From positions 13,855-77,854 of the forward strand of contig CAJULT010000003.1 in assembly GCA_910587225.1 (NCBI GenBank): DNA of 64,000 nucleotides, read 5' to 3'. Under the pieces are notes generated by a model. That model made no database searches and was not told the DNA's origin. It was given only the letters and a program-made list of their open reading frames with translations. Every line of letters starts with the position of its first letter. The first letter of the stretch is position 1. Positions 1-38,575 of the stretch are shown here, one piece after another. The DNA comes from an uncultured Christensenellaceae bacterium (GTDB lineage Bacteria; Bacillota; Clostridia; Christensenellales; UBA1242). The position numbers were made by a program, and so were the translations under genes.

Positions 1-3000
1 TTACATCTTCGCCTTTGGCGTTAGTAACTTTAAGTTCAAGCACGAGCTCACTTGCGTCGTATGGTCTAGGCGCACCTTCTGCCTCGTCTGGAGTGCGAAC
101 AACTGCTGTAAAGGTGTAACCTTTTCCATTAATTATATCGTACACGGTTGAAGTTTCAATTGAATCAATGTTTGCGGTGTGGTTCATGCCAGTGTAGAAA
201 CCTTTACCAGATACATTGATAATAATAGGATGAGCGTCGATTGTAACATTATTTCTAAGAATATACTTGCCAGTTGCATCACTACCTGCCCAACCAGTAA
301 AGTTGTCAAGGCTTGCATCTTCTACGAAATATCTTCTTGCGCTGTATCCACTACCAATGTTAAATACATCACCAGTTATTACAAAACGTTCCGAATTTTC
401 AAGCTCAGCGCCAAAAGTTACAGCATTTGTATTATCAGTGCTGCCATCAGCATTATACATAAAGTATACAGTGCCGTAGTCGTTTCCATTTGCTGCAACA
501 AATTCGCTTGTGCCTGTGTAATAAGTCTTTAAAACCTCGTCCTTGATTACAAGTTGGTTTTTCTTAATTGTAACATTTACTTCGTCTGAAAGTACTTTGT
601 ACTCAGCAGTAGAGTCAGTTAAAGGAGAACTTCCAGCTTGCAGTACTACAACATATACATAAGTGCCGCTATCTTTTACATTTTTCAATGTTAAGATATT
701 TCCCTCGCAAACTGGAGTTTCAAGGTCGTTCTTGTTTGCCCAGTAAGCCTTGACAACCTTGTCACCGTTTTCAAGAGTGTTACCTGCCACAATTTCAATG
801 CCTTCGCTCTTGCCATATTTAGTAAAGTCGCTTGAAAGTGTTGCGGTAGCAAAAGTTTGATCCTGTCCAATATAGTAAACATCGTACTCTGTTTCGTCAA
901 CGCTAGCGGTAACATAAGCTGCCTCGTCGCGTGTCCATATTGCAACAACAGTTACTCCGTCTACTGAAACGCTTGTTGGAGCGTAAACATTATATTTAAG
1001 TACGTCGTCTACAAGCTCTGCATAGATTGTGTTATGGTTGTCTTTGTTAACCCACTTAGCAATCTTATAGCCAGGTCTTGTAAGGTCAAAGTTTGCAAGT
1101 GCGCTTGCTTCATCGCCATAAGCAACTTCAACATAATATCTTCCATCCTCAGCTTCAATAGCACCCTCAGGCTTGAAGATTTCGTATCCCACATAGCTTA
1201 TATAGAATTTATATATATTAGGAGTATACTTAGTATCAATAGTAAGAGCAGTAGCAGTATTATCGTAATAGAAATCTCCATGAAGAAGAGAAGCTATGTT
1301 TGCATCTGTTAGGGCTATGGTAGTACCATTTGCCTTCTTGCTTTCATCCTTGCTGAAATAATCAAATGATGAAGCTGTATTTCCAACTTTTGACGCATCA
1401 AATGCTGCATCCCAAGTTTTAGTTTCTGAATTGTAGTTAAGATAATAGGTGTTATTTAAAAGAGTGATTGTGTCACCAACTTTAAAGGTTGACCAAGTTG
1501 TACTACCTTTGTCAGCAGTGATAACTACGCTGTATGTAATCTTATTCCAATCAGCAGGGTTAAAGTCAACTGAAAGCGCGTTTGCGCCGCCATAAACATC
1601 GCCCCACTTTGCGTCATATTGGAAAGTGCCAGTAGAAGAAAATTCTCTATCGCTATCTTTCCAAGCCCAATTGTTAAATCCGTTGTAACCAATCTTTTGG
1701 TAAAGACCAGCTTTGTTGATGTCAAGAGCTGCAAGTGCTTCGCTTTCGGCGTCATCATCCAATGCATATCTTGCCAATTTTTCCTGTTCGTGATAATATG
1801 TTTCAGTAGTAGCAATGCTGCCATCTTTTACTGAAACAGTGCCATACTCGTCTTCACCTTCCGCAAAATTAATGGTAATTGTCTTTTGCTTAATCACAGG
1901 TTGAACAATAATTTCAGTGATTTCGCTGCCTTCATTTGCAAGTAATGCAAGTACATTTGAGTTGTTTACAATTTCGCTAAGACTAGTCCCGCCTGAAAGG
2001 ATAACTACCTTTCCGTTTTGCAAATACCAGCCTGCTAGATAGTACCCAGTTGCAATATTAATATTTTTTACATCGCTAGACATGGTATAAGTTACTGTTT
2101 TCCCAGATGCAGTTGCACCTGATGACGTGTAACCAGTGTCCACAAGCCCGCTTACTGCGTCTTCTTTTTGTCCATAATATTGGTCATTTCCGTTAAGAGA
2201 AGTTACATAACCAGTATTATCTACAACAAAATTTGCTTTCTTAGTCACATACTTTATTACAAGAGTGCTATCAACTGCACCAAAAGTAACTGTGAATGTA
2301 TCAGCAAATGTATCAACATTATCCCCGAAATTATCTTCTTTTGAAGGTTTTAAATCCTCGGTAGCACCATAAACAAGTGCAGGTTCATTGCCCTCAGATT
2401 GATCTATGAGCAAATATTTAGCAAGATCTAAATTTTTGTTTATAGTCAGCGTTGCTTTGTCGTTTGGTCTATACTGTCCTTCTGGTGAAACTGTAATTTC
2501 GCCAAAGAAGCCTTTGTTGTCACTTGTGCTATTAAACCCGTCTTTGTTTGAGAATAGCAACTCTCCATCTACATAAACTTCATAGTTAAGAGAGTAAACT
2601 TGAGCAATAGCTTTAAATTTCACCTCATATCTATAACCTCTAGCAGCTGCAGAAGTTTGATCTTTAATTTCAAGAGGGAAGCTGAAAATACGTCTTCCTT
2701 GATCCTTATTAGTACTCTCGTCCACTGTGAAAGTGATTGTTTTGCTTTCTATTTCATCGCCAGCTTCATTATAATCATATCTGGTTACTGTAAGTGCATT
2801 AAATCTATAATATCCATTTTGAAGCATTGAAACATAAGCATATCCGCCTTCAAGGCTTGCTGTAACAGTTTTAGAAGCTGTTGTACTATCTGCATATGCA
2901 TTGTTGTATTTTGCAGCAACACTTGCAAGCTCGTCTGTAGACTCAAAACCACCGTAAGTATCATGTTCAACACTTAAATCAATGTTATATGTAAGAGTGG

Positions 3001-4291
3001 TAGCCCTAACGCAAATCACAGGTGCTTCACTGTTCGCTACTAAGCTGTATGCCTCAAATCTGTAACCATAGTGATATTGATGTCCATTAATTAAATCTTC
3101 CGGTCTATCCATTGGTGTGCCTTTAAGTGTGCTAGCATCCCATTCTTTAAGACCTGTTGCATAGTATGTCACAACATACATATCGTTTTCTTGCTCTGCA
3201 GTCGCCTTAATTATCAAATGGCTTTGAACTTTAACATTTGCATATCCATTTTCAACCGCAACCGCTTGTCCGTTCATTGTAATATTCCAGTTTACATTTT
3301 CGCCATCTATTTTAAGCGCAATATCTTGACGGCTAAACACTAAGAATATATCACCATGTCCTACAACATAGTCAAGCGTAATAGTATAGTTGTAAGTACC
3401 TGTAGCCGCGCCATTAGTTCTAGTTACAGTATACTTTGTAGGATTATATGTATCATAATATCCGTTTTGGAATACTGGATATACTCCCGCCTCTGCATTT
3501 GCAGGAAGAGAGGTAGTAACATCACGTCCAGTTGTTCCGTTCCCCACAAAGCCATAACCAAGATTTAAAGTAAAGGAAATCGTAATAGTATTAGCACCAT
3601 TATGTTGTGCAGTAGCCGAATAGTCATAATCGTTTGAAACAGGAACGGTCTCCTCATTAATAGTATTGTTTACGATATTGGTCTTTGTTCCTTTATACTC
3701 AACAGAAGTACCATTATCAATTACACTGAAATTGCTAATTGCATTATCTACAACAAACTTGTCTGTTCCGCTTGCACGAAGTTTGATATTTGAACTTGTG
3801 TAGTTGTTTGCAGTCCATTTAGTGTAAATGGTATAAGATGCCGCATCTGATTCAGTCACTGCTCTGTTGTAAGATGGCACGCTGCCATAAGCCACGCTGC
3901 CATAGCCATCCCCCATAAAATTTGGAAGAGGGATTGTAAAGCCTGCATCCATGTATAAACCTGCAAGGGTATAACCTGTACGAGTAAGATTGAATAGCGC
4001 TTTCACGTCCTCAATGGACATATCGTTGCCGCAATTTTTCCAGTCAGTTCTCTTAGTAGGGTCGCCATAACCATAATCTACAACAACCTTATAATTCTTT
4101 GTAGCCCAAGTAAAATTACATAGGTAACCTGAAACAAGACCACTTGAGCTAAACGAAAAGCCCTCCTTTACAACGAAAGCGCCACCCTCTGCGTTCATTG
4201 CGTACGCACGAGAGTGAAGTTGAGCGCCATAGTTTGGAATGTTAGGAGCAGCAACATATGTACCCGAGCTATTTACAAGGTAGCCATAGTT
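1..4291 (-). CDS. Giant cell-surface repeat protein, distal portion (in frame with 4292-5197 across one TGA; 3' end lies beyond the window edge)
   Basis: The minus-strand frame with codons at 2-4, 5-7 ... stays open in every stretch I hand-translated (4291-3781, 2003-2053, 2-58). It is missing from the ORF track only because it never reaches a stop inside the window; the minus ORFs listed here are all in another frame. It contains Listeria-Bacteroides-repeat-like signatures: RTGYTLAGLY and YTIYTKWTANNYT around 3790-4000, and GYYLAGWYLQNGK at 2012-2050. Confidence 0.75.
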
Positions 4292-5197
4292 TCAAACTGC
4301 AGTACCTAAAGCCGTCTTAGAAGTGTACTTATAAGCAGCTCCGCCATTTAAGTTGTATTGTACAGCGTAACCCTGCGCGCTTGCAGACCCGCTACCAACT
4401 GTTAAAGTACCAGCTATTGCGGATTCGGTAGTGTAATGTGCAGTCTTGCCATCACGGCTCCCACCGCGATAAATTTTAGTTGTGCTATCAACAGTTCCAA
4501 TGCCGTTTCCACCAGCAGTGTTGTAGCAGTTTATTATGTACGCTCCCGTCGTCTTTCCAGCCAACACACCAAAGTTGTTTGTAGCAACACTTGAATTGTT
4601 AACCACGTCGCCTACCGTCAAGTCATAAATAATGGCAGAGCCGCATGCGCCAAAAAGTCCCGCAACTCCACTCGCACCATTATAGATTGACTCATCTATA
4701 AGTCGAATACTTTTAATTGTGTGCTTGTTTCCGTTAAATACACCTTTGAAAGTAGTAGTACTATTCCCTATTGGCGTCCATAATGAAGAGGAAAGGTCAA
4801 TGTCTTGAGTTAGCTCATATTTGCCGCTCACATAGGTTGGATTTCCAACCATTACCATATACGACAAAAACGCCAAGTCATCGGCGCTCTTAATTTGATA
4901 ATAGCCATTTTCCGTGTTGACATTCAAGCTTGTTGAAGCGAGTGTGTCTGCATTGCCAAACTTAGACACCCAGTTATTCCCGCCGCTCACAACCACATCA
5001 GCCTCGGTTGGAATTTCCGTCTTCGCTTGGGTTGGCGCTTCACTTACGCTTTCATCGGCAAAAGCCTGCACTACACGCGTTGATGTGTCAGCACCCAAAC
5101 TAGCATCTCCTTTTAGTGATGGAATAAGACAGCCAACGCCTCCCGCAAGAAGCATAGCCGCCATACAATAAAGCCCTTTGAAAAATTTCCTCTTCAT
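4292..5197 (-). CDS. N-terminal part of the same surface protein: signal peptide plus GLUG-like beta-helix module, ending at an in-frame TGA
   Basis: 301-aa ORF. N-terminus MKRKFFKGLYCMAAMLLAGGVGC is signal-peptide-like. Motifs VAGLFGACG and FGVLAGKTTGAYIINCYN resemble GLUG/beta-helix repeats. The C-terminal residues YAVQYNLNGGAAYKY open a repeat unit that is cut by the TGA at 4292-4294. Confidence 0.8.
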   Translation of the reverse strand: MKRKFFKGLYCMAAMLLAGGVGCLIPSLKGDASLGADTSTRVVQAFADESVSEAPTQAKTEIPTEADVVVSGGNNWVSKFGNADTLASTSLNVNTENGYYQIKSADDLAFLSYMVMVGNPTYVSGKYELTQDIDLSSSLWTPIGNSTTTFKGVFNGNKHTIKSIRLIDESIYNGASGVAGLFGACGSAIIYDLTVGDVVNNSSVATNNFGVLAGKTTGAYIINCYNTAGGNGIGTVDSTTKIYRGGSRDGKTAHYTTESAIAGTLTVGSGSASAQGYAVQYNLNGGAAYKYTSKTALGTAV

Positions 5198-5524
5198 TGA
5201 AATTCTCCTTTTTGAAATTTAGCCAAAAATACCCTCTTTGACTTATGATTAATTATATAATAATCAGCTCGACAAAAACAAACAAAATAAGTCAAATTTA
5301 TTGTTTTTAAAAAATATATTTTTAATCTTAAAAAATCGAATTAAAAAATATTTTTTCAGCATTTTTAAATAATTATTTTTAAATTCATTTTTTGAGATTA
5401 AAATTTTAAAAATTATGCATATTTTTTTAATTTTTTTAGCATTTTTTATTATTTTTTCATTAATTAATTTTAAAATAAAAAAATAATACTCAAAAATTGA
5501 GTGTTATTTGATTTTGTAAAACAA

Positions 5525-5553
5525 TTGACTTAAAACCTAAAAAGCCTTATAAT
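5525..5553 (+). promoter_or_regulatory. Sigma-A-type promoter of trpS
   Basis: TTGACT (5525-5530), 17-nt spacer, TATAAT (5548-5553), about 35 nt before the ATG. SD AAGAGGAA lies just upstream of 5589. Confidence 0.6.
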
Positions 5554-5588
5554 GAAAATATAAAACTTTAAAAAGAGGAAAATTTTTT

Positions 5589-6641
5589 ATGGCAGAAACT
5601 ATTCTTTCAGGCATCAGACCAACCGGAAATTTGCATTTAGGACACTACTGCGGCGCGATATCTCAGCTTGTTGAACTTCAAAATAAAGGAAGCTACGACA
5701 ACTTTTTTGTTATGATTGCGGATGCACAAGCGCTTACAGACAACGCAAAGAATGTTGACAAAGTTAAAAATAATGTTATTCAAGTTGCTATAGATTTAAT
5801 AAGTGCAGGCATAGATCCAAATAAAGTTACCATATTTATTCAGTCACAAGTTCCCCAGCTGCACGAAATGACCGACTATTTTTTAAATCTTGTTACCCTA
5901 TCTCGCCTAAAACGCAACCCGACTGTTAAAGAGGAATTAAAGCAACGAGGCTTTGAAAACAGCCTACCTGTCGGCTTTTTAACCTATCCGGTAAGCCAAG
6001 CAGCCGATATTTTGGCGTTTTCTACCACATTAGTACCTGCCGGAGATGACCAAAATCCAATGCTTGAGCAGTGCCGCGAAATTGTTCACACTTTTAATTC
6101 TACTTACGCTTCAATATTTACTATGCCTAAAATTATGCTCCCTTCTAGCAAAACCCAAGCGCGCCTTCCAGGACTTGACGGAAAACTCAAAATGAGCAAG
6201 TCAGCAGGAAACGGAATAAATCTTTGCGATGACGAGGCAACAGTAAAACAAAAAATAATGAATGCCTATACCGATCCAAATCATATTAAAGTATCAGATC
6301 CCGGTCAAATAGAAGGAAATGTCGTATTTACCTATCTCGATGTATTTTGCAAGGATGAGCATTTCGCGAAATATTTGCCCGACTATAAAAACCTTGCCGA
6401 GCTTAAAGAACACTATCGCCGCGGCGGACTTGGTGATGTAAAAGTTAAAATATTTTTAAATAACATTCTACAAGAACTTCTCACACCTATCCGCGCAAAA
6501 AGAGCGGAGCTTGAAAATAATATTGATAATGTATACGATATGCTTTTTGAAAACGGAAAGAAAATGCGCAAAATAGCACAGGCAAAAATAGAACAAATGC
6601 ATGATGCAATGGGAATAAATTATTTAAAATATAGAAAATAA
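5589..6641 (+). CDS. trpS: Tryptophan--tRNA ligase
   Basis: 350 aa. Class I synthetase motifs TGNLHLGH (HIGH-type) and KMSKS are present, and the length and N-terminus are typical of TrpRS. Confidence 0.95.
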   Translation: MAETILSGIRPTGNLHLGHYCGAISQLVELQNKGSYDNFFVMIADAQALTDNAKNVDKVKNNVIQVAIDLISAGIDPNKVTIFIQSQVPQLHEMTDYFLNLVTLSRLKRNPTVKEELKQRGFENSLPVGFLTYPVSQAADILAFSTTLVPAGDDQNPMLEQCREIVHTFNSTYASIFTMPKIMLPSSKTQARLPGLDGKLKMSKSAGNGINLCDDEATVKQKIMNAYTDPNHIKVSDPGQIEGNVVFTYLDVFCKDEHFAKYLPDYKNLAELKEHYRRGGLGDVKVKIFLNNILQELLTPIRAKRAELENNIDNVYDMLFENGKKMRKIAQAKIEQMHDAMGINYLKYRK

Positions 6642-10502: not shown

Positions 10503-10531
10503 TTGACAATTATTTTTGTTTATGTTAATAT
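10503..10531 (+). promoter_or_regulatory. Promoter firing into the ORF-free structured region
   Basis: TTGACA (10503-10508), 17-nt spacer, extended -10 TGtTAATAT (10523-10531). Confidence 0.6.
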
Positions 10532-10537
10532 AATACT

Positions 10538-11113
10538 ATCACGAAGGTGCAGTATTCTAGTCAACTAGTGCGAATGAGAATGCCGAAATAAGCATTGATG
10601 GCACAACTATGAAGTTCGTGGTGCTGGCTTTGGTTGCCCAAATCGGGGCTGGTACTGGGAGTTAAGATTTTTGGGTGGCGAGTAATGGCATACACGCTTA
10701 AGCCCAATTATCGCGGAGACCCAAGTGGGTAAAGAAAATATGAAGGCATATCTATTTATCGCTTGGATGAGAAACCTGCAATGTGGCGAAAGTTGCGTGC
10801 AGTGTAGCCTGCTTTGAGTGGATTGTTTGGAATAGAGCGTAAATCAATATTTATCCAAAGTACACGGAAGATATTCGGTTGCTCTTGAAATTACGTCCGC
10901 AAAATAAAGATAAGTTCGTACGATGTTGTTAAGGAAATCTTCTAGACTGTTTGCGTGAGCGAGATACTATGGGGATTATAGTGTGGTCTAAGTGGCGATT
11001 CGGTGCAAGTTCTGCGTAAAGGGAAACCGCTCTGCTGGTAACGGAAGAGTGCAGAATTGGGAAATCCAACCGAACCTATGCCGCAAGGTTTACTCATAGT
11101 ATTGCCTTCGTAA
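10538..11113 (+). ncRNA. Large structured ncRNA, candidate OLE RNA
   Basis: About 520 nt (10569-11089) has no ORF of 60 aa or more on either strand, yet the region is visibly more G+C-rich than true spacers. It has a dedicated promoter. A terminal helix can form between ACGAAGGTG (10541-10549) and 11103-11111 (..TGCCTTCGT). Local hairpins include ACTAT/ATAGT (10966-10982), TTGG-gaaat-CCAA (11057-11069) and AACCT/AGGTT (11073-11090). It lies immediately upstream of a small 4-TM protein gene. Confidence 0.55.
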
Positions 11114-11144
11114 ATTAAAATTAAAGCTTTGTGCTAAAATATAT

Positions 11145-11702
11145 ATGAAAGAAAAACAGAAAAAAACTAAACATTCTAACGCTTGGATATGGCCTATAAA
11201 GATTTTTATAATTGCCATAGTTCTTTCTTTGTCGTTCAGCATAGTAAGTGAGTTAGCTTTAACCGGCGCACATATTGCTGTGGCGATTGTAGTAATACTC
11301 GTCTTTATTGGAATAAGCATCGTGTTTGATATGCTTGGACTTGCGGTAGCTTCAAGTGACCTCAATCATTTTACTGCTATGGCAGCGAGAAAAGTCAAAG
11401 GCAGTAAGCAGGCAATAGCCCTTAACAAAAATGCTGACAAAGTATCTTCGGTTTGCGCTGACGTTATCGGTGACGTATGCGGAATATTGGCTGGTGCAGC
11501 TGGCGCGAGTATAGTTGCCAAGATTGCACTAGCAGCAAATGGTGATTTCATATCAATATTAATCGCCTCTTCAATTTCGGCAGCAATCGCCGGACTAACG
11601 ATATTTGGTAAGGCAAGTTTAAAGCGATATGCAATCAAACACGGAAATGAAATCACCTTAAAACTTGCTAAGTTTATCAATTTCTTTACTAGGAAAGATT
11701 AA
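11145..11702 (+). CDS. Small four-TM membrane protein, candidate OLE-associated protein A (OapA-like)
   Basis: 185 aa (about 20 kDa) with four hydrophobic helices, positioned directly after the structured RNA, as published for oapA. Confidence 0.6.
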   Translation: MKEKQKKTKHSNAWIWPIKIFIIAIVLSLSFSIVSELALTGAHIAVAIVVILVFIGISIVFDMLGLAVASSDLNHFTAMAARKVKGSKQAIALNKNADKVSSVCADVIGDVCGILAGAAGASIVAKIALAANGDFISILIASSISAAIAGLTIFGKASLKRYAIKHGNEITLKLAKFINFFTRKD

Positions 11703-13384: not shown

Positions 13385-14443
13385 CTAATTAAAATATGCG
13401 TAAATGTAATCGGTAAAAGCTGGCAAATATACATTGTAATAATCTTGAATTTCGCCATAATAGCCTGCTACATTTGCGTTATTTTTCTGATATTCGGCAA
13501 TTTTGCATTCATACTTTGTATAAAAATCTCTAAACGAAAAGTTTCTAAAAGCTTCATTTATCAAAGGTTTTTCACTTGCAAGAAGGTTAATTTTGTTTAA
13601 AATATCAGAAACCTTTGTATTGTTATATACTTCTTTTCCTTCTACTACGGTTGGGTAAGAAGCAAGATAGTTAGAGTCCCAATCTCTATTAACAAAGCGT
13701 GATATCAGCTCGGACAGATTTTGCTTTTGCTGATTTATAAAGTTAACAAATTCAATATTTTCTACTGTACCTTTCAGCTCATAGTCGCGTGAGCCTAGTT
13801 CTCTTGCAAGAAGGTTATAATATTCCTGTCCGACCTTTAACGAAACGTAATCGCTTATAACGCTATTATCTGCCTTGGTCACAGCAGTAGTTACAAGTCC
13901 TTGATATTTATTGAACACCTTTACTTCAATCTCAGCAAGACTTTCTGCGAGATCATAAGCAGATCCGATAAAATCATGAGCTGCCACCCTAAAAGTTTGA
14001 AGTGCGCCCGCTTTGATATCAGCATTGGTAAAACTAACATATCTATCGTACTCGGTTGAGAGTCTATAATAATTGGTAGAAAATTTATATAAATCTTTTT
14101 CAAAATTGTTTACAGCACCTTTGCCTTCACCTGAAAGCTTAATGCTAGCTAATTTATCAAGGTCGCCTTGGTAGTCAGTTATAAAAGTCATTGGGATAAC
14201 TAAAAGTTTATTATAATATCCATAGTTGCCGCTATTTTCATAAAACGGTCTAAGCGCAAAATTGGTAATAGCGCCGTCTATATTATCACTGACAAACATG
14301 CTATCGCTACCCATGTCAAAAATAAGAGAGTCAAGCTTATCATACTTCATAGTGTTTTCACTGCCTTTGTCGCAGGCGAACATACTAACGCTGCAAACAC
14401 ACAAAAGCAAAGCAAAAACTATTTTCATAAATTTATTTTTCAT
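13385..14443 (-). CDS. Hypothetical lipoprotein
   Basis: 352 aa with signal peptide and lipobox (..SVSMFAC). Its ATG overlaps the stop of the upstream gene (ATGA). Confidence 0.7.
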   Translation of the reverse strand: MKNKFMKIVFALLLCVCSVSMFACDKGSENTMKYDKLDSLIFDMGSDSMFVSDNIDGAITNFALRPFYENSGNYGYYNKLLVIPMTFITDYQGDLDKLASIKLSGEGKGAVNNFEKDLYKFSTNYYRLSTEYDRYVSFTNADIKAGALQTFRVAAHDFIGSAYDLAESLAEIEVKVFNKYQGLVTTAVTKADNSVISDYVSLKVGQEYYNLLARELGSRDYELKGTVENIEFVNFINQQKQNLSELISRFVNRDWDSNYLASYPTVVEGKEVYNNTKVSDILNKINLLASEKPLINEAFRNFSFRDFYTKYECKIAEYQKNNANVAGYYGEIQDYYNVYLPAFTDYIYAYFN

Positions 14444-15336
14444 GCGCCAAGCCCTCCTCTAAGATATACTTTAACCACATTGTTAAGTAGGTCGGTAGAG
14501 TCTGCATTTATCTTTGAATAATTGAAGCCAGACGCGCTAGATTTAGCAATTACAGCCTCAAAGTTTTTAAGATTATATATCTTTAAAAATTCGTTAAGCT
14601 TTTTAGTCCCCGATTGCAAATTCTCAGAAAGGTGATATTTACTAATAGGGCTAGAACCATTCATGTAAGCATTCACAAAAAGTTCAGCATTGGTGATTAC
14701 ATGTGTCTTTTCTACGTTAAGTTGTGATAGATAATCACAAGAAGTGCTTAGCACAACCTTTGCAAAATCATTGTTCGCAATTTTAGAAGGCATGCAGGCA
14801 GTATAAATATTTGCTAGCCCCTTTAATGCGCCATTAAAATTATTGACATAAACTTCAAATTTTTCTTTGAAGCGCACCCACGCAGGATTAACGAAAGTTG
14901 GGTCAGCTCCCGTATATTCGCTTACCTGTTTTAGCACGCTACGCATTTCTGTTTCAGCCTTTCGCGCACCGTCAAACCCGTCAAGTACAGTAAAGTAGTT
15001 GTTTTGATAGGTTTTATTGTCCTCAGCAAATACAAGCTTTTCGTTATAGAAAGAGGTCATTTTACTATACAAAGCTATAATTCTGCTTGCATTATTGATT
15101 TCAAGAGAGTACTGAGCGCTTGTAGAGCTAAGCTTAACTTTAAATGAATCAAACTTTGCCTTATCATCCTTGTTTGATAGGAACATTGACTGCTGCATAT
15201 CTCTCGTTGCGTCAGTTACTTTGGAAACTTTTTTAGGGATGCACAATATTACTGTCACAACTATTGCAGCCGCAAGCGCCAGCACCGCAAGCACAATAAG
15301 CCATTTCTTACCTCTGGTCATCTTCTTTTTTGCCAT
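14440..15336 (-). CDS. Hypothetical membrane-anchored protein
   Basis: 298 aa with a single N-terminal TM helix (WLIVLAVLALAAAIVVTVIL). SD GGAGGGG. Ends in TGA, overlapping the next start. Confidence 0.7.
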   Translation of the reverse strand: MAKKKMTRGKKWLIVLAVLALAAAIVVTVILCIPKKVSKVTDATRDMQQSMFLSNKDDKAKFDSFKVKLSSTSAQYSLEINNASRIIALYSKMTSFYNEKLVFAEDNKTYQNNYFTVLDGFDGARKAETEMRSVLKQVSEYTGADPTFVNPAWVRFKEKFEVYVNNFNGALKGLANIYTACMPSKIANNDFAKVVLSTSCDYLSQLNVEKTHVITNAELFVNAYMNGSSPISKYHLSENLQSGTKKLNEFLKIYNLKNFEAVIAKSSASGFNYSKINADSTDLLNNVVKVYLRGGLGA

Positions 15337-20952: not shown

Positions 20953-23900
20953 CTATTTAAGTTCCACCTTGTAGCTTTCGCCAGTTTTGGTAATTACCAA
21001 ACTATGTCCATCCCCGCAAGAGATTGTTCTTTCAGAAATGGTGTTTGTAAGACCGCTGATGCCTTGACCAGAATAGCAGAGGTTATTGCTGCCCGAGGGG
21101 CTTCTTGTGGCGTCGCCTGCAAATTTTATGCCGCTTGCTTCAACATTGCCGTTTATTCTTCCCGCAATAAGAATATATGCAATTCCCCCTAGGTAAACTT
21201 TCCCATTTGTACTTGTACATTCAGGCGCTATATTATTGTAGTTGTAAGACAATAACCCATCATAATTACGTACCACAATACCCGCTAAATAGTAAGTAGC
21301 TGCTCCACCAGAAGCTAAGATTTTGCCGTTATTGCCACTTTCAACAATTCTGCTTGAGCTTCCTATGTTGTTAATTGCAATTCCTGCAACTCTGTAATAG
21401 TAATTTGCTCTAGCGGATTGAATGTTTATATTCGCTCTATTTTCACAGTGAATAATCCTGCCGCCGCCCATGTTGGAAACTACAAAGCCGCCGAAGCTAA
21501 GGTTGTAATTAGAACTTGGTCTTATTTGAATGCTACCCTCATTTACGCAGCTGTCGATAATGCCGCTATTTACTGCAACAAGTCCGCCAATAGCCACGTC
21601 GCGCGCTCCACTGACTGACATGTTCATAGACTGCCCAGTTATTGTCACATTAGAAATATTTCCATAGTTTTTAAGAGCAAGTCCGCCTGCCAAAAGGTTT
21701 CCTTCAACGCTTAAATTGTAGTTTACATTTAACTTAAGTTTTTTTATCGAGCCGCCTTTGCCAATCTCTTTAAATAGCGCAGCAAGCTTCGTGTAATTAA
21801 TAGTAATCTGACCAGTCTTATCAATCTCGCTATAGAAAGTGAGGTTTTCGCTGACTTCTTTATCGTTTACTATAATGGATATTGCGCTTGACAAGTTCAC
21901 GGTTATCGTCTGCCCATTAGCATCGTACTGTCCATAGAAAGTACCATTAAATGCGAAGCCATTTACATCAAATTCAAGGTTTTCTGTTTGTTTGAAATGG
22001 TACTCTGCCAAGTTGCGAACTGCCATATTGTTAAATTGCTCTTCACTCGCAATTAGATAAGGATTGTCAACTGTGCCGTCACCAGCTTCAAACAATTTGT
22101 ATTCTATGTATCCGTCTGGTGCAGTCCAAGAAATAGGCTCTTTCGAGTAAAGGCTGTTTGCATTCTTTCTTACATAAACCTGAGCAGAAATAATCTTACC
22201 CATCCTTCTCGGTTGATAGAAATTGTTTGTGGTTTCGCTAGTTTCAATAATCTCAATTATCTTGCCATTATCATCATAAATGAAATTGCCGTCGTCATCA
22301 CACTTGCCATAAGTCACCTTTACTTTGTAACCAGGTATGTCGCCTTCCTTCTTTTCGCCTTCCCATGGAGTCCAGTTAAATCTATATTCTTCTGTCGACC
22401 AAGAAACAGTTGCCTCTTCTTGCCATGATGGAGCAGGGAGCGTAAAGTCTTCTGTGTTGCCTTTAATCACCATAAAGGTTTGATAGCTTTGACTAGGCAT
22501 TACATCAAATATCAATTTTAGCGAAGTGTAGCCCTCTGGAATATAGATGGTAGTTCCTTCATTAGTAATTTTGTCACCTCTAAACACTAGTTTGAAATTA
22601 CTATGTTGCTTGCTATTTTTATCATAAGATTCTACAAAATCACTTGTAAGTGTAATCTCTTCTCCATCTTTGTTATAGAACGCGATTACTTGCAATTTTA
22701 CATTGTAATATTCAGTTGAGCGAAGTATCTGTTTGTTTTCCAAAAGTTTAGTGATATCAATTGTATAACCTTCATCAGTTTCAATCATATCAAAGTCATC
22801 GCCTGTAACACTTGGTGCTTTATACACCTCTTGACTTTCGCCAAATTTTACAGCAACAAGGTCACTCTTAATCTGATCACTTTCACAAGCATACATTTTA
22901 ATTCTATAAGGGTTTGGAGAATATTCAAGACCTATAGCTTCAAAGGTGTTTCCATTTTGCTCACCTTCGATAATATTTCCCTTCTCATCTACAAAGCCAA
23001 ATTTAGTATTTGCAGTTGTATCATAATCCCATACGATAACACCTTGATTATTTACAGTTACATTTGTAGGCGAAGCCGTCTTTGTGATAGCTTTGCTTTC
23101 AATATAACTACTTGCAAGGACATAACTACCATTTTCGTATCTGCAAACTGCGGAGTTTATAGCTTCCTCAGTCAAAGCTGTGCCAGTTGGAACTGCAAGT
23201 GCACGAACTTTAAATTTGTACTCTGCATTAGGGAATCTTGAAACAATCTGAGCTGTATCAAGCTCTGCTTTAGTAGTTAAAAACTTTTCGGTAACTTCGG
23301 CAGTGCTACTATCTTGAACGTTTTTACTATTATCATGTTCAACGGTCACCTCATAAACGATCTGCCCGTTTACACTTGCGGCATTTGTTGCTTCGTCCCA
23401 TGAAACAATACCGTTATTAAGGGTAACAGCCCCGCTAAGTTTTAACATTGCAGCAGGCACAGTTTCCACTGCGGAAGAAAGTATTATGTATGGTTTCTCT
23501 CCCGCCATCACTTTAGTAAATGTCGCCTCTTGGTCAACATTAAGAGTAAGCTCCTCGCCGCTGATTGTAAGCTTAATTCCATTTGGCAGGAGGGTCGTCG
23601 AAGCGTCTTCTCGCACTTGTGTACCAATACTTGAAATGTAAAACTCTGTTGCAGTTGTTTCTGTCTTTCTATAGTCTGCATCTTCAGCCGTGCCACCTGC
23701 AACATAAGTCATGGTTTTGACTTTATTCATGCTCGGCGAAATATAACTATCTCCGTCTGCTTTATCATTGGATACTTTAAATCTATAATCATCGCCATAA
23801 TCCAAATCTAGTTGGTTTGCTTTGATAGTAAATTTGTTTCCAGCAGCGCTTACTTCAACGTTTTTATTTTTATAAATGTTTTGAATTAAGATATTATCGC

Positions 23901-26900
23901 TATCAATGCGCATGCTTGCTTGGCTCAATCCGCCCTTAATAGAAAGGATAACATAATGATAATAACCACTATCTATTAAATTAAGCCATGCATTGCCATT
24001 TTTATCAGGGCTTAAATCTTTAGGCTTTTCAGTCTCCTTTTCCTTGCGGTAACGCACTTGTGTAACATGCCCATGCGCATTCCAAGAAATAATTCCATTA
24101 TCAAGGGTGAGCGTGTTTTTAATATCAAGGTATACAATTTCAACTTTGTTACTCTTTCCGTTAAGGTTATATTCATTGCCAACAGTATAGATGCTAAGCA
24201 TATAACTGTTTCCGCCAAAGTCTATGCACTTGTCTTGCTTACCATCATTATATGCGTGTGTTTTGAGATCTCGCATATTAAGTGTGAGTGAAAGCACTTT
24301 CCCGTCTTGTATATTTTGTGCAAGTTCTATTGGTTCGTTGAACACATGCCTATTATATATGATTCTACCTTTATTATCTTTATCTTGGATGAGGAAGCTA
24401 GTAATCAGATATTTATCATCCACCTTTTCCACGTTAAAGCAGTATAAGCTATTTTCCCCCTTCAAATGAAGTGTATATAAGTTCGCTGAAACGCGCTTGC
24501 CATTTTCCATAATATCAGTTAGAGTAAATGTCACATAATAATTATTTCTTGAATCTTTAGTATCACTTGAAAGAGTAATTGCCGGCGCTGACGGAAGATA
24601 AACATCATGGCCAAACACTTCCTTTCCATTAATTGTTAACGAGTTTGCCAGGGATTGATTTGAACTTACATTGTTATACCCCGTATATACAGTCTGCATT
24701 GCGGTAATCTTATAACTTCCAGCTGGAATCTGTTTACCAAAATCGTCAAACAATATTTCGTTATTTGCTATACCATTTGAATTCATCATTGCATTCAGAA
24801 TATTCATTACCTGATTCCAGTATGGTATCGTTCCATTTCCATCTAGTGCCGACATTAGCGCCTCTAAGCAATTTGTATCAGTGCCACTACTTGCCGATTG
24901 GAATGTCAAGGTAGAAAGGTCTGGCATAAGCTGTGCTGCATTTACTGTTGCAGTGTAAGTACCATTGCCCTCCGAACTAGTAAATGTGAGTTTAATTAGT
25001 GAGTATTCTATACTTCTCCCTGAGAAACTAAATGGGCTAGAGAAGTTGGTATTTCCGACCATGCTGTAGAAATTGGTAGTTCCATAAGAAGTTTTAATTG
25101 CGTTAAAGAAATCGCTGTTAATTACATCCTCGCGGCTAAACATTAGGTGTCCATTCTCTACTGTTAAAGTTGCTGGAGTTGCATACTTGGTTGTAAGGAA
25201 TTCGGTAGTTGGCTCTGACGCCAAGACAAGAGTATCATTAGAAACTGACACAACTTGAATGGAATAACTAAGCCCCGGAATAAGCTTATCATAAAGGTCG
25301 ATATTGGCTGCAGTAACATACTCATAACCTCTATCTACTTTCTCGTCATTTTCTGTGGTTGTGAAGTAAACATAATAGCCTGTTGCGTCGGTTGCTGACC
25401 ATGACAGTATGTTATTAGATAGGCGAAGATTATTAGTCTTATCTAATTTTCTAATCGTAAAGTTTGAATAAGACTGCATCCAAGTATCATCTTTAAAAGT
25501 GGTCTTTTCTACTTTTATTTGAGCGTCACATGCACCAATTGATTTAAAGAAATCGTTTACATTAATTGCATAACATTCTCTGTCAGCCTTAGTTTTTCGT
25601 ATTGTGTCAAAGTGATAACCATTTTCATCTTCAATCCAAAAACCATGCAGGCTAGATGGCTGAAAGCTTTGTTCATAATGTCCCTTTGTGCCATTAATAA
25701 GCACAGTATCGGCTGTTATTTTAATTCCTCTTGCGTTAGCGTCATAACCAATCACAATGTAGTCATCAGCCATATCTTTGCCACGCAAGTATTGCATTGT
25801 CTTATCTAAAGATGAAGTGTAATTAAATTTAAACTCTTTCAAAGGAGAATTTACATTTCCAACTTTAGCAACGCCTAATTTGAAACTTACACTTCCACTT
25901 ACGTTTATTTCAAATAAGCTTATAAATTCGCCCATTGAGTAAGTACGTACTCCATTTTCCTTTTTATCTGGAGTAAACTGTTTACTTTCATTATTGTAAG
26001 TTGCCCAGAATTCAAGTTCACCTTGTGTTTCTTGCTCTTCATAGAGGGTTATTTCAACTGTTCCATAATCGTTAATCTGAATGTCTGAAATACCTTTAAG
26101 TCTATAACCTTCCTTAATAGACACTATATCTCTTGATGCAAGTTTTTTGTCTGTACTGTCATAACCTATTACGCCGATATCATACATACCGCTTAAATCG
26201 CCAAACTTTTCACTTAAGTCAATAGTGGGCGAATCGGATGAGTCGTAAATTGTATGTCCACCGATTGTAATTTCGTAGAAGAATTCTTTTATAGCTGCGG
26301 CTGCATCAATAGTCAAGATTGCATCTGCTGATAAAGAAAGTCCATTTATATTTTCAAGTCTTTCAATAGTAACAAAACTATCATTTGATTTAATAGCATT
26401 TGTAGCCGCAACTTCAAACTTAACCTCAGTTTCAAGCTCTGTAAAGAAGGTTTTATCAAGGGTGAGAATGTATTTGCTGCCAACTTTTTCAAAGGTGTAG
26501 CCTGTTCCGCTTGCGCCAGCGTCAGTAAGTGCTACAAGTTTAGTGCCGCCAATTTCAACCTCAAAGGTAACTCCACTAAATGAGCTCCAATTGTCTAAGA
26601 TTTCAAATTTAACGCTTGCGTTACTTTTTCTAAGTGTTTCTCTCGAAGTTGTATCATCTTCAACTATAACTATGTTAACATCTTCAACTGCTTGAAGTTT
26701 TGATAGGCTTAACTGCTTGTCGCTTTGCGCCACTCCGTAATACCCAGTTCCGCTTGACAGTTGATAGTTTGCAATTTCTGTTATTATCTGAACCTCATAG
26801 TCACCTTCTCCAAGCCCGTAAAGAACCTGCGATGAAAGCAATAACTGCGTTTCTTGAATACCCGAAATTTTATCTACTTGAATATTGCCATTGTATATAA

Positions 26901-29900
26901 TGACACTATAAGTTAATCCCTCTCCGTTAAAGTCATCGGCAACATTATTCCATGTGATTTTATCTCCAGCAAGGCTAGGTGTAATAGTTTGATCTGCAAG
27001 ATCTTTAAAAGTAAAGCTTGCCAATTGGCTATCAAGATAATAATATTCTACTTCCTGTTGTACAATTTTTGTCACGCTTATAAGCTGCAAATTTACTTGC
27101 TCACCTAGATCAGCAACATTGAAAGATAAGAAACCGTTCACCTTATCAAATCCACTAGCCTCGTTGCCGTTTATGAGAACTTTGTCTATCTGGTTTGGAT
27201 TAGAAATTGTTATGCTTGCGTCTCCTGCTTGATTTACATTAAGTGAAGAAATAGGTGCAAGCTGAGAAACGATAATCACGTTTGAAGACGCAGACGAAAG
27301 ATAATGTGGATTGTTTGCAATTACCATGACTGTTCTAGGTCTAGTGAAATCAATATCTAGTTTATAAGAAACCATTCTCTTGCCACCAGTTTCAGTAACT
27401 GCAGAATAATCTTCTCTTACAACTTCGCCGTCAACATAAATTGTATAAGTTGTATTACCAAGGCTTCCAACTGCCTCCCAGTTGAGAGTTCTATCCTCTT
27501 TAGAGAAAGAAATTTGTGCCGAAACTAGGCTTTCAAGTGTAAGCTGGCTTTGTCCGTCTAAGGTATGCCCTTCAAGAGAAGGAAGATAATATGTATTTCC
27601 CTCGCTCTCATTTTTGTATGCCTTGATTTGAACTTTAACCGATACGCACTGCTCATAAGCTGAGGCGAACTCACTATCTTTTTCTAGCTGAGATTGAATG
27701 TACCCGTCTAAATCAAAAGTCTTAGCATCAAGATAGCGTTGAACCACATAGTTGCTCTCTCTTCCAACAACGGTTAATATTAAGCTGTAATTGTGTGTTA
27801 ATCCCGAGTAGCCATCTGTTGATTCATTAGGATCTACAAAGGTTAAAATGCCATTTTGATATTCAATGTTCGTCGGGCGAAGAAGTCTTTTGAAATTGTA
27901 GGAAAGCTGATCGCTATCTATATAGTAATTGTTGTCTTGGTCTGGCTTGGCTATGTAGGTTATCGAAAGCGAGAAATCGCTTGTAAAGCCCAGAAGAGAT
28001 AGTTTGCCGCCATTAAGCTCTAACTCTTGCCCATCCTTTTGTACCAATATTTTTAAAGCTTGTGAGTTTGCACTTACGCTGAGCACTTCATTTTTATCAA
28101 TCGTAATTTTAGGAGTTGCAAGTTTAGTAGCAACAATTTCACTTGCTGGCGACTTGGTGTGAATTTGCGCTTCTGCGTCAGATGCTACCGCCTCGACAGA
28201 AATGTTATAATCGCCCGCGCCTTTAAGCTGCCCGCCGATTGTGAAATCATAAGTTTTTTGTATGTTTCCATCTCTGTAAACATTGGCAACCTCTCTGCCA
28301 TCAATTTTGATAACATATTTGTATGTAAATTCATCCTCTGATTCGATAGTTAAAATTTTGCTGTCGCTATCAAATGAAAGGGTTGGCGCTGTCAGCGCTT
28401 TTGTAACAAAGTAAGGACCATCGCTAGGCAAATATTCAAAATAGCTATCCCCATCCACAAAATCGGCATCCAAATAGTTGTTGATTCCGCTTTCGGTCGC
28501 TCTGGTATAAATTTTTATGTAATAATAGCCAAAGTCGAGCTTTTCTTTGATTTTGGTATCTTGGGTAACTTCATGCGCTACAAGCTCTCCTAGTGTTCCG
28601 CCCTTAACAAAGTCTTTGTCAACTTTATAAATGTAATATTCATATTCACATTCCCCGCTTACACCTTCCCAAGCAAATAAGCCATTTTCTTGGTTTGCTG
28701 CCGCTTTAGAAACTGCATCTAGTATGGTTAAGGTTTTATTAACCCTAACTTCATTTGCCGCTCCATCCTTGCGATAAGCGGTAAGTGTAAGATTGTAAAC
28801 CTTTCCGTTCGGCTGACCAAGCCTGCCGATGTTAATTTGACCTTTTTCATCAGGCACAACCTCAGTTGTTTCGCCGTTGATTGTCAGTTTGTATTCTGCA
28901 TTTTCATCTTTTGCAAAAGTCAAAATGCTGTTGCCATCCGAGTCAAGACTATGGATAAGACTAGAAATAGTATCAAATAAATAGTACTGCCTTTTCTCAA
29001 CACGAGAGTTGAGAACTCTTGCCTGACCGTCAAGCTCCTTTAAAATATCATCATTTACAAAACAAGGAAGACTTGTCACATTTAGCGCCTGCTCACCTTT
29101 CTTGCCATCTAAGTCTAGCGGTAAGGATATGTGATTTCCCGATTTTGCAGTATTTAAGTATGCGGTCAGTCCGCCATATTCAATCTTATAATTTTCGCCA
29201 TATGAAGAAGGAATAAAGTCTATTTCAAGTTTTCCACTCTGTACACGATAGGTAAACTCTGGTTTTGGCAAAATCGCAAACACCTTAGTTGTCGCTCTGC
29301 TTTTGCTATAAAAATTGTCTTTGTAATAACCACCTTTCGCGCGAACATAGAATTCATAAGTGCCATAATCAAGTTCTGCAATATCCTCAATTTCAATTAT
29401 GCCGCTGTCGCCAGTTTTAAGGTTGACATACTTTACTAAATAACCAGTATTAGACTTGCTCCATGCCAGCTGTCCTGATGGAACGCCTACTGCGACTTCA
29501 TCTAGATTGTAATTGAACTCCACCGCACTAGGTTTTGTAACTGTTATGCTTTGGTAAGATGAGAACTTTTCTTTGGTAGGGTCAAATGCTTCTAGTTTAA
29601 TTTCAACTGACTGCCCGTCACCATAATTGGCGAAATCAAGGTCGACGCTATCGCCATTAAAGTTTGAATAAATTTCAACTCCGCCCACGCTAACTTTGTA
29701 TCTTGCCAAAGGATCTTTATCCCAACTGAGTGAAACGAGATTGTTGTCAAAATCTTCATCAACTGAGGCGTTAAAATTTGAGATTCTTTCCATTGCATAG
29801 TAACTTTCAAAAATGGTTATCTGCTTTGACGAATCAACATACTTGTTTCCGTTTGCCACAATGCTGATTTCCATTTCACCTTCGTGAGGAAGCTGAAATT

Positions 29901-30652: not shown

Positions 30653-31480
30653 TTAATTATCTATTTTTAACCAACTAGGATATTTTTCAAAAATTTTATT
30701 TTCCAAATATTTGAGCGGCTCATCTAATTTTTTAAAACGCAAACTTACCGCATGCAACTTTTGGTATTTTTCTTTAAATTTCTTATTGTCTTCACCTCGT
30801 CCATACTTACCATCTCCAATTATTGGGTGTCCTAAATGGGCAAGGTGCGCTCTTATTTGGTGTGTTTTACCCGTACCTAAAACACACTCTACAATGCTAG
30901 ATGATGGGTTTGACTTTATCGTTTTAAATGTTGTTACAATCTCTTCATAACCTTTCCTAGGCTTATCACATACCTCGCAGTATGCCTTTTCAGAGTCCTT
31001 TTTAAGATAAGCTGTGTAAGCTTCCCCCTTGAAATTTGTCGAGCCAAACACCTCGGCAATATATTTCTTTTCAACTGTTCGCTCTTTAAACGCCTTTAAA
31101 AGTGCATTTTCGGCATTCTTGTTTTTTGACATAATCATAATGCCCGAAGTGTTTCGATCAAGTCTATGCACCGCCTTAAATCCGGTTAACTTTTCAAGGC
31201 TGTTTTCGCCCTGCACCTCAATGCCCGCCCGCTTATCAAGTACAAGCACATTGTCATCTTCATAAACTTTATCAAATCGCTCATCAAAAGATTCTTCGGC
31301 GTAATAAATGGTAATTTCGCTACCCGCTATAATATCAATATTTTCTCTTGTACGAGTTCCGTCAACGATTGCATCTTTATTGCGAAGTATTTTGTTTGCA
31401 TAATTGTATGAAAAACCCTGCTCCGCAATAAGCGCTGCAAGCTTCCCGTTTTTCTCGACTACAAAAGTTTTCTTTTTCAT
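30653..31480 (-). CDS. RluA-family pseudouridine synthase
   Basis: 275 aa. Catalytic HRLDRNTSG motif and GKTHQIRAH motif, with an S4-like N-terminus. Confidence 0.9.
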   Translation of the reverse strand: MKKKTFVVEKNGKLAALIAEQGFSYNYANKILRNKDAIVDGTRTRENIDIIAGSEITIYYAEESFDERFDKVYEDDNVLVLDKRAGIEVQGENSLEKLTGFKAVHRLDRNTSGIMIMSKNKNAENALLKAFKERTVEKKYIAEVFGSTNFKGEAYTAYLKKDSEKAYCEVCDKPRKGYEEIVTTFKTIKSNPSSSIVECVLGTGKTHQIRAHLAHLGHPIIGDGKYGRGEDNKKFKEKYQKLHAVSLRFKKLDEPLKYLENKIFEKYPSWLKIDN

Positions 31481-31561
31481 AGTTTTATTTTACAATAAAT
31501 TTAACCAAAAAACTATCATTTTTAAAGCAAATTTTGAATATTTTACTGTAAGGAGCAATTT

Positions 31562-38572: not shown

Positions 38573-38575
38573 AAA

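What the first reader, a model, noticed from the sequence alone, without database searches (positions are those of the whole stretch)
1..5197. One in-frame TGA splits a surface-protein gene of more than 1,730 codons, inside a repeat unit
ORF 4292-5197 (signal peptide plus GLUG-like beta-helix) stops at TGA 4292-4294. The same frame then reads on without a stop in every stretch I translated, down to the window edge: ...YAVQYNLNGGAAYKYTSKTALGTAV*NYGYLVNSSGTYVAAPNIPNYGAQ... The stop falls in the middle of a Listeria-Bacteroides-type repeat, not at a domain boundary. The next in-frame ATG is 32 codons downstream and has no SD. TGA is a normal stop elsewhere in this window (murB at 52355-52357; the ATGA overlap at 14440-14443), so genome-wide recoding is unlikely. 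Three options remain: a recent nonsense allele (an on/off or truncated-isoform variant of an adhesin), leaky readthrough giving a short secreted form and a long form, or a base-call error.
Basis: seen in the sequence. Interest (0 to 1): 0.55.

Follow-up and report, generated by a model that had tools for sequence, protein, structure and literature searches.

The report
Private nonsense SNP in giant surface-protein gene
A single G-to-T base change, seen only in this assembly, puts a TGA stop at codon 302 of a roughly 6,300-codon surface-protein gene that is intact in three near-identical assemblies, so it is an ordinary knockout allele or a consensus error, not recoding.

Summary
On the minus strand, the frame from ATG 5197 to the window edge (1,732 codons) has exactly one stop, TGA at 4294-4292. 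Three other assemblies of the same near-clonal organism (99.5-100% identical) read GGA (Gly) there. Two of them call one gene of 6,305-6,306 aa; the third contig is cut inside it. A distant syntenic orthologue (2,497 aa) aligns colinearly across the site. So this is one gene, hit by a single coding-strand G>T substitution private to this assembly.

Against the best reference contig, only three substitutions and one poly-C length difference separate about 61 kb. The stop is the only coding difference in the gene.

Recoding, selenocysteine, programmed readthrough and classical phase variation all fail their tests. TGA ends other genes normally, and no other split ORF exists. There is no stable RNA structure after the stop and no repeat tract at the site.

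What remains is a real recent null allele (about 0.55) or a consensus or base-call error (about 0.35). Only reads can separate them.

One detail is not supported. Codon 302 lies about 65 residues before the first detectable Listeria-Bacteroides-type unit, not inside one. The finding is ordinary and of low interest.

The parts
1..5197 (-). First 1,732 codons of a giant secreted or surface protein gene. The intact allele in sister assemblies is 6,305-6,306 codons and runs beyond the window edge.
   Evidence: Translation has one stop only. L002 and L003 gene calls give 6,306 and 6,305 aa, starting at the same ATG, 392 nt from trpS. Identical to L002 and L003 over 1-5197 except at position 4294.
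4292..4294 (-). In-frame TGA at codon 302. The variant base is window position 4294: A on the + strand, T on the coding strand. Other assemblies have C/G there, giving GGA (Gly).
   Evidence: Alignment A1 differs at one column among 123. L002, L003 and L004 all read GGA. The site is unique in the window.
4292..5197 (-). Truncated ORF of 301 aa plus the stop. It holds an N-terminal hydrophobic signal-like segment, a low-confidence linker, a folded beta-helix-type domain and an unstructured tail.
   Evidence: AlphaFold pLDDT is 80-95 for residues about 90-230 and below 50 for 1-88 and 256-301. The signal peptide is judged by eye only.
4508..4930 (-). N-terminal GLUG / IgA1-protease-like beta-helix domain (residues about 90-230). 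This is the only part widely shared with other proteins.
   Evidence: Hits P0002-P0030 cover only 6-10% of the query. tblastn matches fall at residues 95-242. It aligns with the GLUG-bearing region of P0029. Foldseek top hit is 3n6z, followed by other beta-helix and beta-solenoid folds (SRRP adhesin, pectate lyases, tailspikes) among weak matches.
3800..4105 (-). First detectable, degenerate Listeria-Bacteroides (Flg_new)-like unit, residues 365-466. It begins about 65 residues downstream of the stop.
   Evidence: Local alignment to the Pfam-verified Flg_new unit of the same protein (L002 residues 3126-3197) scores 65 against 29 +/- 6 for shuffles, 0 of 300.
4196..4198 (-). Next in-frame ATG, 32 codons after the stop, with no Shine-Dalgarno sequence. 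Any restart product would lack the signal peptide.
5205..5210 (-). Ribosome-binding site AAGGAG, 7 nt upstream of ATG 5197.
5198..5588 (.). Very AT-rich divergent intergenic region between the giant gene and trpS. It is the local hotspot of differences between assemblies (5278, 5432, 5438, 5454, 5481) and a place where short-read contigs break.
   Evidence: A sigma-70-like promoter for trpS lies at 5525-5553. No Rfam family, including T-box, reaches its gathering score here.
5589..6641 (+). trpS (tryptophan--tRNA ligase). It is the divergent neighbour used as the syntenic anchor to fetch sister assemblies.
   Evidence: TIGR00233 at 1.9e-71. The exact protein is found on 10 contigs. The arrangement is the same next to orthologue P0001.

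Best explanation
The locus is one gene for a giant secreted or surface protein of about 6,306 codons. It has an N-terminal signal-like segment, a GLUG/IgA1-protease-like beta-helix domain, then thousands of residues of beta-rich modules that include Listeria-Bacteroides repeats. In this assembly alone, a single coding-strand G>T transversion turned Gly302 (GGA) into TGA.

Most likely this is a real, very recent nonsense allele in the strain or population behind this assembly. Inferred consequences:
- Translation ends after 301 residues, releasing at most a short secreted fragment carrying only the beta-helix domain.
- The remaining roughly 18 kb is untranslated and probably subject to transcriptional polarity.
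- Restarting at the ATG 32 codons downstream would be inefficient, and the product would lack a signal peptide.
- The surface protein is therefore effectively lost, apart from generic UGA leakiness of a few percent at most.

The change is not programmed. It is an ordinary loss-of-function polymorphism in a very large mutational target, and a single back-mutation could reverse it.
For: - One stop in 1,732 codons.
- L002 (GCA_948915875.1), L003 (ERZ28569892) and L004 (ERZ28571691) all read GGA, with every flanking base identical.
- L002 and L003 call a single gene of 6,306 and 6,305 aa.
- Orthologue P0001 (2,497 aa) aligns colinearly over query residues 3-630 and sits in the same divergent arrangement with a class Ib tRNA ligase gene.
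- Window versus GCA_948915875.1 over about 61 kb: only 4294, 5438, 5481 and one poly-C length difference, plus a stretch at window 56712-56769 that did not align.
- Several other assemblies are 100% identical to the window over 8-20 kb. Consensus errors in this set are therefore rare, and a substitution in normal-complexity, unique sequence is more likely a true variant.
- A second private nonsense SNP (TAT>TAA) in another gene of another assembly, L020, shows that such alleles turn up in this population.
- Published surveys report in-frame stops as common, short-lived population polymorphisms in bacteria (PMC7918605).
Against: - No reads are available, so the base cannot be verified.
- The T allele appears in no other assembly on record. 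An exact look-up of the 301-aa product found nothing, and a JGI metagenome scan of the site found nothing.
- G>T / C>A is the classic oxidative-damage artefact class (my own knowledge).
- The change is a shift at the boundary between two short base runs (TTGG>TTTG). The window's other private differences sit in or beside homopolymers (T7 at 5438, a poly-C run of 10 versus 9 at about 42776). That pattern is also typical of consensus errors.
Confidence: 0.55

Rival explanations
1. Consensus or base-call error. The organism behind this assembly actually has GGA like its sister assemblies, and the T was introduced by low coverage, oxidative G>T damage, polishing or a strain-mixture artefact. On this reading there is nothing biological here.
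For: - The allele is private: the only three other fetched assemblies covering the site read GGA, and the 301-aa product is not on record anywhere.
- It is the only coding difference in 5.2 kb of otherwise identical sequence.
- All three window-private differences touch homopolymer runs or their boundaries.
- These metagenome assemblies do carry artefacts. N-gaps split giant gene 2 and dnaB into false gene pairs.
- G>T / C>A substitutions are 2.3 times more likely than average to create a stop in this gene: 10.1% against 4.4%.
Against: Assemblies of this clone agree perfectly with the window over tens of kilobases. The per-base error rate is therefore very low. The site is unique, normal-complexity sequence. 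Substitution errors rarely win a consensus at normal depth (my own knowledge).
Confidence: 0.35
2. Functional leaky readthrough. The TGA is real and tolerated or selected because near-cognate tRNA-Trp reads through it at a few percent. That would give a short secreted beta-helix fragment plus a low dose of the full-length protein, acting as an expression-dampening allele.
For: - UGA is the leakiest stop. About 6% readthrough of a TGA reporter was reported in wild-type Bacillus subtilis (Karow et al. 1998, as cited in PMC7918605).
- In-frame stops have been proposed to act as expression regulators (PMC7918605).
- Bacterial tRNA-Trp variants with 4-bp anticodon stems can read UGA (PMC13092985).
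- The base after the stop is A (TGA-A). From my own knowledge of E. coli data, that is a relatively weak termination context.
Against: - The stop is not conserved. Conspecific assemblies have GGA, and the distant orthologue has a sense codon.
- There is no stable RNA structure downstream (z = 0.59).
- No other interrupted gene occurs in 64 kb.
- Readthrough would insert Trp where Gly is encoded.
- No tRNA-Trp gene lies in the window to inspect.
Confidence: 0.07
3. Recoding of TGA, either genome-wide reassignment (to Trp or Gly) or site-specific selenocysteine insertion.
For: Only the bare fact that the reading frame stays open for more than 1,430 codons after the TGA, and that the ancestral codon is Gly, which TGA encodes in genetic code 25.
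Against: - TGA terminates six other long ORFs. These include murB and a 4-nt ATGA gene overlap, with ends matching gene calls in sister assemblies.
- Sister assemblies of the same clone have GGA, not TGA.
- The aligned residue is Gly or Arg, not Cys or Sec.
- There is no SECIS-like stable hairpin.
- The organism is a spore-forming Firmicute (SpoIIP, YabP and Spo0A_C domain hits, OLE RNA), not a lineage known for reassignment.
Confidence: 0.01
4. Classical phase variation: a reversible on/off switch of the adhesin through a simple-sequence repeat or an invertible promoter.
For: - Differences between assemblies cluster at this gene's 5' end and its upstream region. All three substitutions separating the window from L002 fall within 1.2 kb of about 61 kb compared.
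- Contigs break in the intergenic region.
- Elsewhere in the window, a poly-C tract upstream of another gene varies in length between assemblies.
Against: The stop arises from a point substitution, not a repeat-length change, and there is no repeat tract at the site. The intergenic region shows only low-complexity AT-rich pseudo-repeats, with no well-matched arms that stand out from that AT-rich background as an invertible element would need. Those polymorphisms are shared out among several assemblies rather than tied to the TGA allele.
Confidence: 0.02

Closest known systems
Nonsense polymorphisms and young pseudogenes in bacterial populations (in-frame stops as short-lived SNPs; Belinky et al. 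2021, PMC7918605)
   Same: A single in-frame stop in an otherwise intact, orthologue-supported ORF. [quoted passage not shown]
   Different: It is not shared by any second genome. It therefore fails the cross-genome conservation criterion that paper used to exclude sequencing errors and to argue for function.
Giant Firmicute surface proteins built from Listeria-Bacteroides (Flg_new, PF09479) repeats with GLUG / IgA1-protease-like beta-helix heads
   Same: The intact allele carries Flg_new above the Pfam threshold (32.7 bits against a cut-off of 27). The N-terminal domain is homologous to the GLUG-bearing region of P0029 and has a beta-helix-like predicted fold.
   Different: Most of the 6,306 residues match no Pfam or NCBIfam model. 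No wall anchor was seen, because the C-terminus lies outside every sequence I could fetch. No M26 peptidase catalytic domain was detected.
Leaky UGA termination in Bacillus subtilis (catA86-TGA reporter, about 6% readthrough; Karow et al. 1998 as cited in PMC7918605)
   Same: The stop is UGA in a Firmicute, so some Trp-inserting readthrough is plausible.
   Different: Nothing here indicates selection for it or enhancement of it. The stop is private to one assembly.

Membership tests
Nonsense (null) allele or young pseudogene of an intact gene | Orthologues and conspecific alleles carry one uninterrupted ORF across the site | tested here: met
   L002 has 6,306 aa and L003 has 6,305 aa as single genes. 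L004 is open through the site. All three read GGA. P0001 aligns colinearly over residues 3-630.
Nonsense (null) allele or young pseudogene of an intact gene | The stop is truly present in the DNA of the organism, supported by reads | not testable with these tools
   No reads are available. The T allele is absent from all other assemblies on record.
Programmed or functional stop-codon readthrough | The in-frame stop is conserved in orthologues or in other genomes | tested here: not met
   The three conspecific assemblies have GGA, and the distant orthologue has a sense codon.
Programmed or functional stop-codon readthrough | A stimulatory downstream RNA structure or special context | tested here: not met
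   The 96 nt around and after the stop fold at -16.6 kcal/mol, z = 0.59 against shuffles.
Programmed or functional stop-codon readthrough | A suppressor or unusual tRNA-Trp (UCA anticodon or 4-bp anticodon stem) in the genome | not testable with these tools
   Only tRNA-Gly(CCC), Asn(GTT) and Ser(TGA) lie in the window. The rest of the genome is not available.
Genome-wide TGA reassignment (genetic codes 4 and 25) | TGA is not used as a terminator, and many in-frame TGAs occur in genes | tested here: not met
   Six other long ORFs end in TGA at ends matching gene calls in sister assemblies. This is the only TGA with at least 100 open codons on both sides.
Selenocysteine insertion | A SECIS hairpin just after the UGA, and Cys or Sec at the homologous position | tested here: not met
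   No significant structure. The homologous residue is Gly in conspecifics and Arg in P0001.
Phase-variable contingency locus | A simple-sequence repeat at the switching site, or an inverted-repeat-flanked invertible promoter | tested here: not met
   The change is a point substitution in unique sequence. The intergenic region holds only AT-rich low-complexity repeats.
Listeria-Bacteroides repeat (Flg_new, PF09479) protein | A Pfam Flg_new match above the gathering score | tested here: met
   In the intact allele from L002, the match is at residues 3126-3197, E = 8e-8, 32.7 bits against a cut-off of 27. That lies outside the window. Nothing reaches threshold within the window's 1,732 codons.
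   Residues 275-366 against the bona fide unit score 30, against 29 +/- 5.6 for shuffles. The first significant unit is residues 365-466.
GLUG-motif / IgA1-protease-like beta-helix domain | A Pfam Glug (PF07581) match on the protein itself | tested here: not met
   No hit even at E<=10.
GLUG-motif / IgA1-protease-like beta-helix domain | Homology or fold similarity to GLUG-bearing domains | tested here: inconclusive
   BLASTP gives 1e-9 to 1e-12 against P0029, whose Glug motif (residues 92-117) aligns with window residues about 205-227. Foldseek's best hit is 3n6z at E = 1.5e-3 with TM 0.32, from a model with mean pLDDT 57.5.

The most novel reading that the evidence does not exclude
The TGA is real and is kept in part of the population as a dosage or on-off allele of the giant surface protein. 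Generic Firmicute UGA leakiness, or an unusual tRNA-Trp, would supply a few percent of full-length protein. Most product would be a free secreted beta-helix fragment. This would be a natural example of the 'in-frame stop as expression regulator' idea, in a 6,300-codon adhesin.
Probability: 0.05. Interest if true: 0.4.

Novelty: already known. Interest (0 to 1): 0.13.

Why it matters
It matters little beyond annotation. If the base is real, this strain has lost a giant surface protein of about 6,300 residues through one point mutation. That is a small data point on how quickly very large adhesin genes decay or are switched off in near-clonal bacterial populations. If the base is an error, the lesson is practical. 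A single consensus error turns a 19-kb gene into an apparent pseudogene. In the sister assemblies, 10-N scaffold gaps likewise create false gene splits, including in dnaB. Either way, the locus should be annotated as one gene with an internal stop, not as two genes and not as recoding.

Tried and rejected
- Pfam and NCBIfam on both halves and on a 241-aa stretch spanning the stop: no usable hits.
- Exact look-up of the 301-aa product, to find other carriers of the T allele: none on record.
- A 5.8-billion-protein search with the joined protein returned only distant relatives. The best was P0001 at 29% identity. The near-identical 6,306-aa protein was not returned, although it exists in the contig index.
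- The genome-contig scan found only N-terminal-domain relatives in Ruminococcus, Faecousia and other MAGs.
- A cluster look-up gave no names.
- A JGI metagenome scan for the site with either allele: 0 hits.
- A literature search for the accession numbers: 0 papers.
- I suspected recurrent disruption of giant surface genes, because giant gene 2 is called as two genes in L018 and L020, and dnaB is split in L026. All three splits are caused by 10-N scaffold gaps, so I rejected the idea.
- I looked for an invertible promoter in 5198-5588 and found only AT-rich low-complexity repeats.
Only the 301-aa product could be modelled, so the domain context of codon 302 rests on sequence tests alone.
- No T-box or other Rfam family lies upstream of trpS at gathering threshold.


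Full report
**Observation.** On the minus strand an ORF starts at ATG 5197-5195, preceded by AAGGAG at 5210-5205. It runs 301 codons to TGA at 4294-4292. Translating the same frame from 5197 to position 1 gives 1,732 codons with that single stop. The next in-frame ATG is 32 codons downstream (4198-4196). It has no Shine-Dalgarno sequence, and no in-frame GTG or TTG lies before it. TGA is a normal terminator here. Six other ORFs of at least 150 codons end in TGA, including murB (end 52355-52357) and the ATGA overlap at 14440-14443, and those ends agree with gene calls in sister assemblies. This is the only TGA in the window with at least 100 open codons on both sides. The core observation is exact.

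**One gene or two.** A search of 5.8 billion proteins with the joined sequence returned few relatives. The best was P0001 (2,497 aa, GCA_054281395.1). BLASTP aligns it colinearly with query residues 3-630, straight through position 302. It also sits in the same divergent arrangement next to a class Ib tRNA ligase gene. The window's neighbour at 5589-6641 is trpS (TIGR00233, 1.9e-71).

An exact look-up of that TrpRS protein returned contigs of essentially the same organism. In GCA_948915875.1 (L002) and ERZ28569892 (L003), the gene starting at the equivalent ATG is called as a single ORF of 6,306 and 6,305 aa. In ERZ28571691 (L004) it is open as far as the contig goes. So the locus is one gene, and the window holds only its first 27%.

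**The variant.** I aligned 123 nt around the stop from the window, L002, L003 and L004. Every column is identical except one: the window has TGA where all three others have GGA, Gly. On the + strand this is C>A at 4294. The site is unique in the window, and only these three fetched loci cover it.

**How close are the genomes.** I walked along the window with exact look-ups of dnaB, the second giant gene and a P-type ATPase. That allowed a comparison of window 1-61062 with the same GCA_948915875.1 contig.
- The only differences are 4294, 5438 and 5481 (the last two in the AT-rich intergenic region upstream of the giant gene) and a 1-nt poly-C length difference near 42776. In addition, a stretch at window 56712-56769 did not align to the reference contig; I did not inspect it.
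- Several other assemblies are 100% identical to the window over 8-20 kb: L019, L021, L025, L027 and L031-L033.
- This is therefore a near-clonal population sampled many times. The TGA is private to the window and is the only coding difference seen in this gene.
- At 5438 the window also differs from all four assemblies that cover the site (L002, L003, L004, L006).
- The intergenic region 5198-5588 is generally polymorphic. Short-read contigs end there, and L004 has an N-gap there.

**Tests of non-trivial mechanisms.**
- Genome-wide recoding is excluded by normal TGA terminators and by the absence of any other interrupted gene.
- Selenocysteine is excluded. The ancestral residue is Gly (Arg in P0001), and the RNA after the stop is no more stable than shuffles (z = 0.59).
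- Programmed or selected readthrough lacks its key signature, which is conservation of the stop across genomes. PMC7918605 used that criterion to set aside sequencing errors.
- Generic UGA leakiness may still give traces of full-length protein with Trp at position 302. About 6% was reported for a B. subtilis reporter, cited in PMC7918605. That is background, not design. No tRNA-Trp gene lies in the window, so I could not check for the 4-bp anticodon-stem variant described in PMC13092985.
- Classical phase variation is not supported. The change is a point substitution in unique sequence, and the upstream region holds only AT-rich low-complexity repeats.
- An apparent pattern of recurrent disruption of giant genes in sister assemblies turned out to be 10-N scaffold gaps.

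**Real allele or error.** Both remain possible, and only reads can decide.

For a real allele:
- The assemblies otherwise agree base for base over tens of kilobases.
- The site is normal-complexity and unique.
- Another assembly (L020) has its own private nonsense SNP, TAT>TAA in a 298-aa gene. Young deleterious alleles therefore do surface in this population.

For an error:
- The allele appears nowhere else on record.
- G>T is an artefact-prone substitution class (my own knowledge).
- The change is a shift at the boundary between two short base runs (TTGG>TTTG).
- The window's other private differences also sit at homopolymers.

In this gene, 4.4% of all possible substitutions create a stop, and 10.1% of G>T / C>A substitutions do. 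A nonsense hit is mildly unlikely under either reading. But the finding was selected because it is a stop, so this carries no weight. My estimates are real nonsense allele 0.55, consensus error 0.35, and functional readthrough or anything else 0.10.

**What the protein is.**
- The N-terminus has a basic and then hydrophobic signal-like segment (judged by eye).
- An AlphaFold model of the 301-aa product folds residues about 90-230 with pLDDT 80-95. It leaves residues 1-88 and 256-301 unstructured.
- The best PDB match is a putative IgA1 protease from Bacteroides ovatus (3n6z, E = 1.5e-3). After it come other beta-helix and beta-solenoid proteins (a Lactobacillus SRRP adhesin, pectate lyases, phage tailspikes) among weak and unrelated matches.
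- Pfam Glug does not hit the protein itself. It hits homologue P0029 exactly where P0029 aligns to window residues about 205-227. 'GLUG-like beta-helix' is therefore reasonable but indirect.
- Bona fide Flg_new repeats exist in the intact protein, at residues 3126-3197, far outside the window.
- The segment containing codon 302 (residues 275-366) shows no significant similarity to such a unit. The following segment (residues 365-466) does. The stop therefore lies between the beta-helix head and the first recognisable repeat, inside conserved coding sequence but not demonstrably inside a Listeria-Bacteroides unit.

**Consequences if real (inferred).** The cell would make a secreted 301-residue fragment with the beta-helix head and a floppy tail. 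The downstream 18 kb would go untranslated, probably with polarity. There would be no efficient restart, and any restart product would lack a signal peptide. The result is a functional null that one back-mutation could reverse.

**Organism.** It is unnamed. SpoIIP, YabP and Spo0A_C domain hits, thyX, desulfoferrodoxin, murB and a full-length OLE RNA point to an anaerobic endospore-forming Firmicute with 37% GC.

**Verdict.** The evidence reduces it to an ordinary private nonsense SNP or a consensus error in a giant surface-protein gene. It is neither novel nor surprising, and interest is low.

Noticed in passing
window 10528-11124 (+): A full-length OLE (Ornate Large Extremophilic) RNA: RF01071, 355.7 bits, model positions 1-616 of 616. 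A 185-aa gene with no NCBIfam hit follows at 11145-11702 and partly overlaps its 3' end.
   Followed up: partly
window about 42777-42786 (poly-C on the + strand, poly-G on the - strand): The homopolymer tract is 10 C in the window but 9 C in three other assemblies (L028, L029, L030). It lies about 60 nt upstream of the ATG of a 597-aa gene with no Pfam or NCBIfam hit (40926-42719, - strand). This may be slipped-strand phase variation of a promoter, or a homopolymer assembly error.
   Followed up: partly
window 20953-30414 (-): A second giant ORF of 3,153 aa has no Pfam or NCBIfam hit at all. It is conserved exactly in at least nine contigs of the clone.
   Followed up: partly
L018 (window-equivalent 23913), L020 (22655-22760), L026 (16113-16122): Ten-N scaffold gaps in sister assemblies make gene callers split giant gene 2 and the essential dnaB into two 'genes' each. 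These splits are assembly artefacts, not real disruptions.
   Followed up: yes
L020, window-equivalent 14848 (298-aa gene 14440-15336, - strand): Another assembly (ERZ28571691) carries its own private nonsense SNP, TAT>TAA at codon 163. Its gene call is split into 162 + 117 aa.
   Followed up: partly
window 5198-5588: The intergenic region between the giant gene and trpS is extremely AT-rich and homopolymer-rich. It holds 5 of the 19 substitutions seen among the assemblies in the first ~27 kb of the window. Several Logan contigs end there, and L004 has an N-gap there. No T-box leader was detected upstream of trpS at the Rfam gathering score.
   Followed up: partly
window 30653-40918 and 58225-59745 (gene calls read from L024 and L028): Pfam domain hits typical of sporulation proteins (SpoIIP, YabP, Spo0A C-terminal domain) occur together with thyX, desulfoferrodoxin and glycosyltransferases. 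This indicates an anaerobic endospore-forming Firmicute. The species is rare in public data, with only about 4-13 contigs per protein.
   Followed up: no
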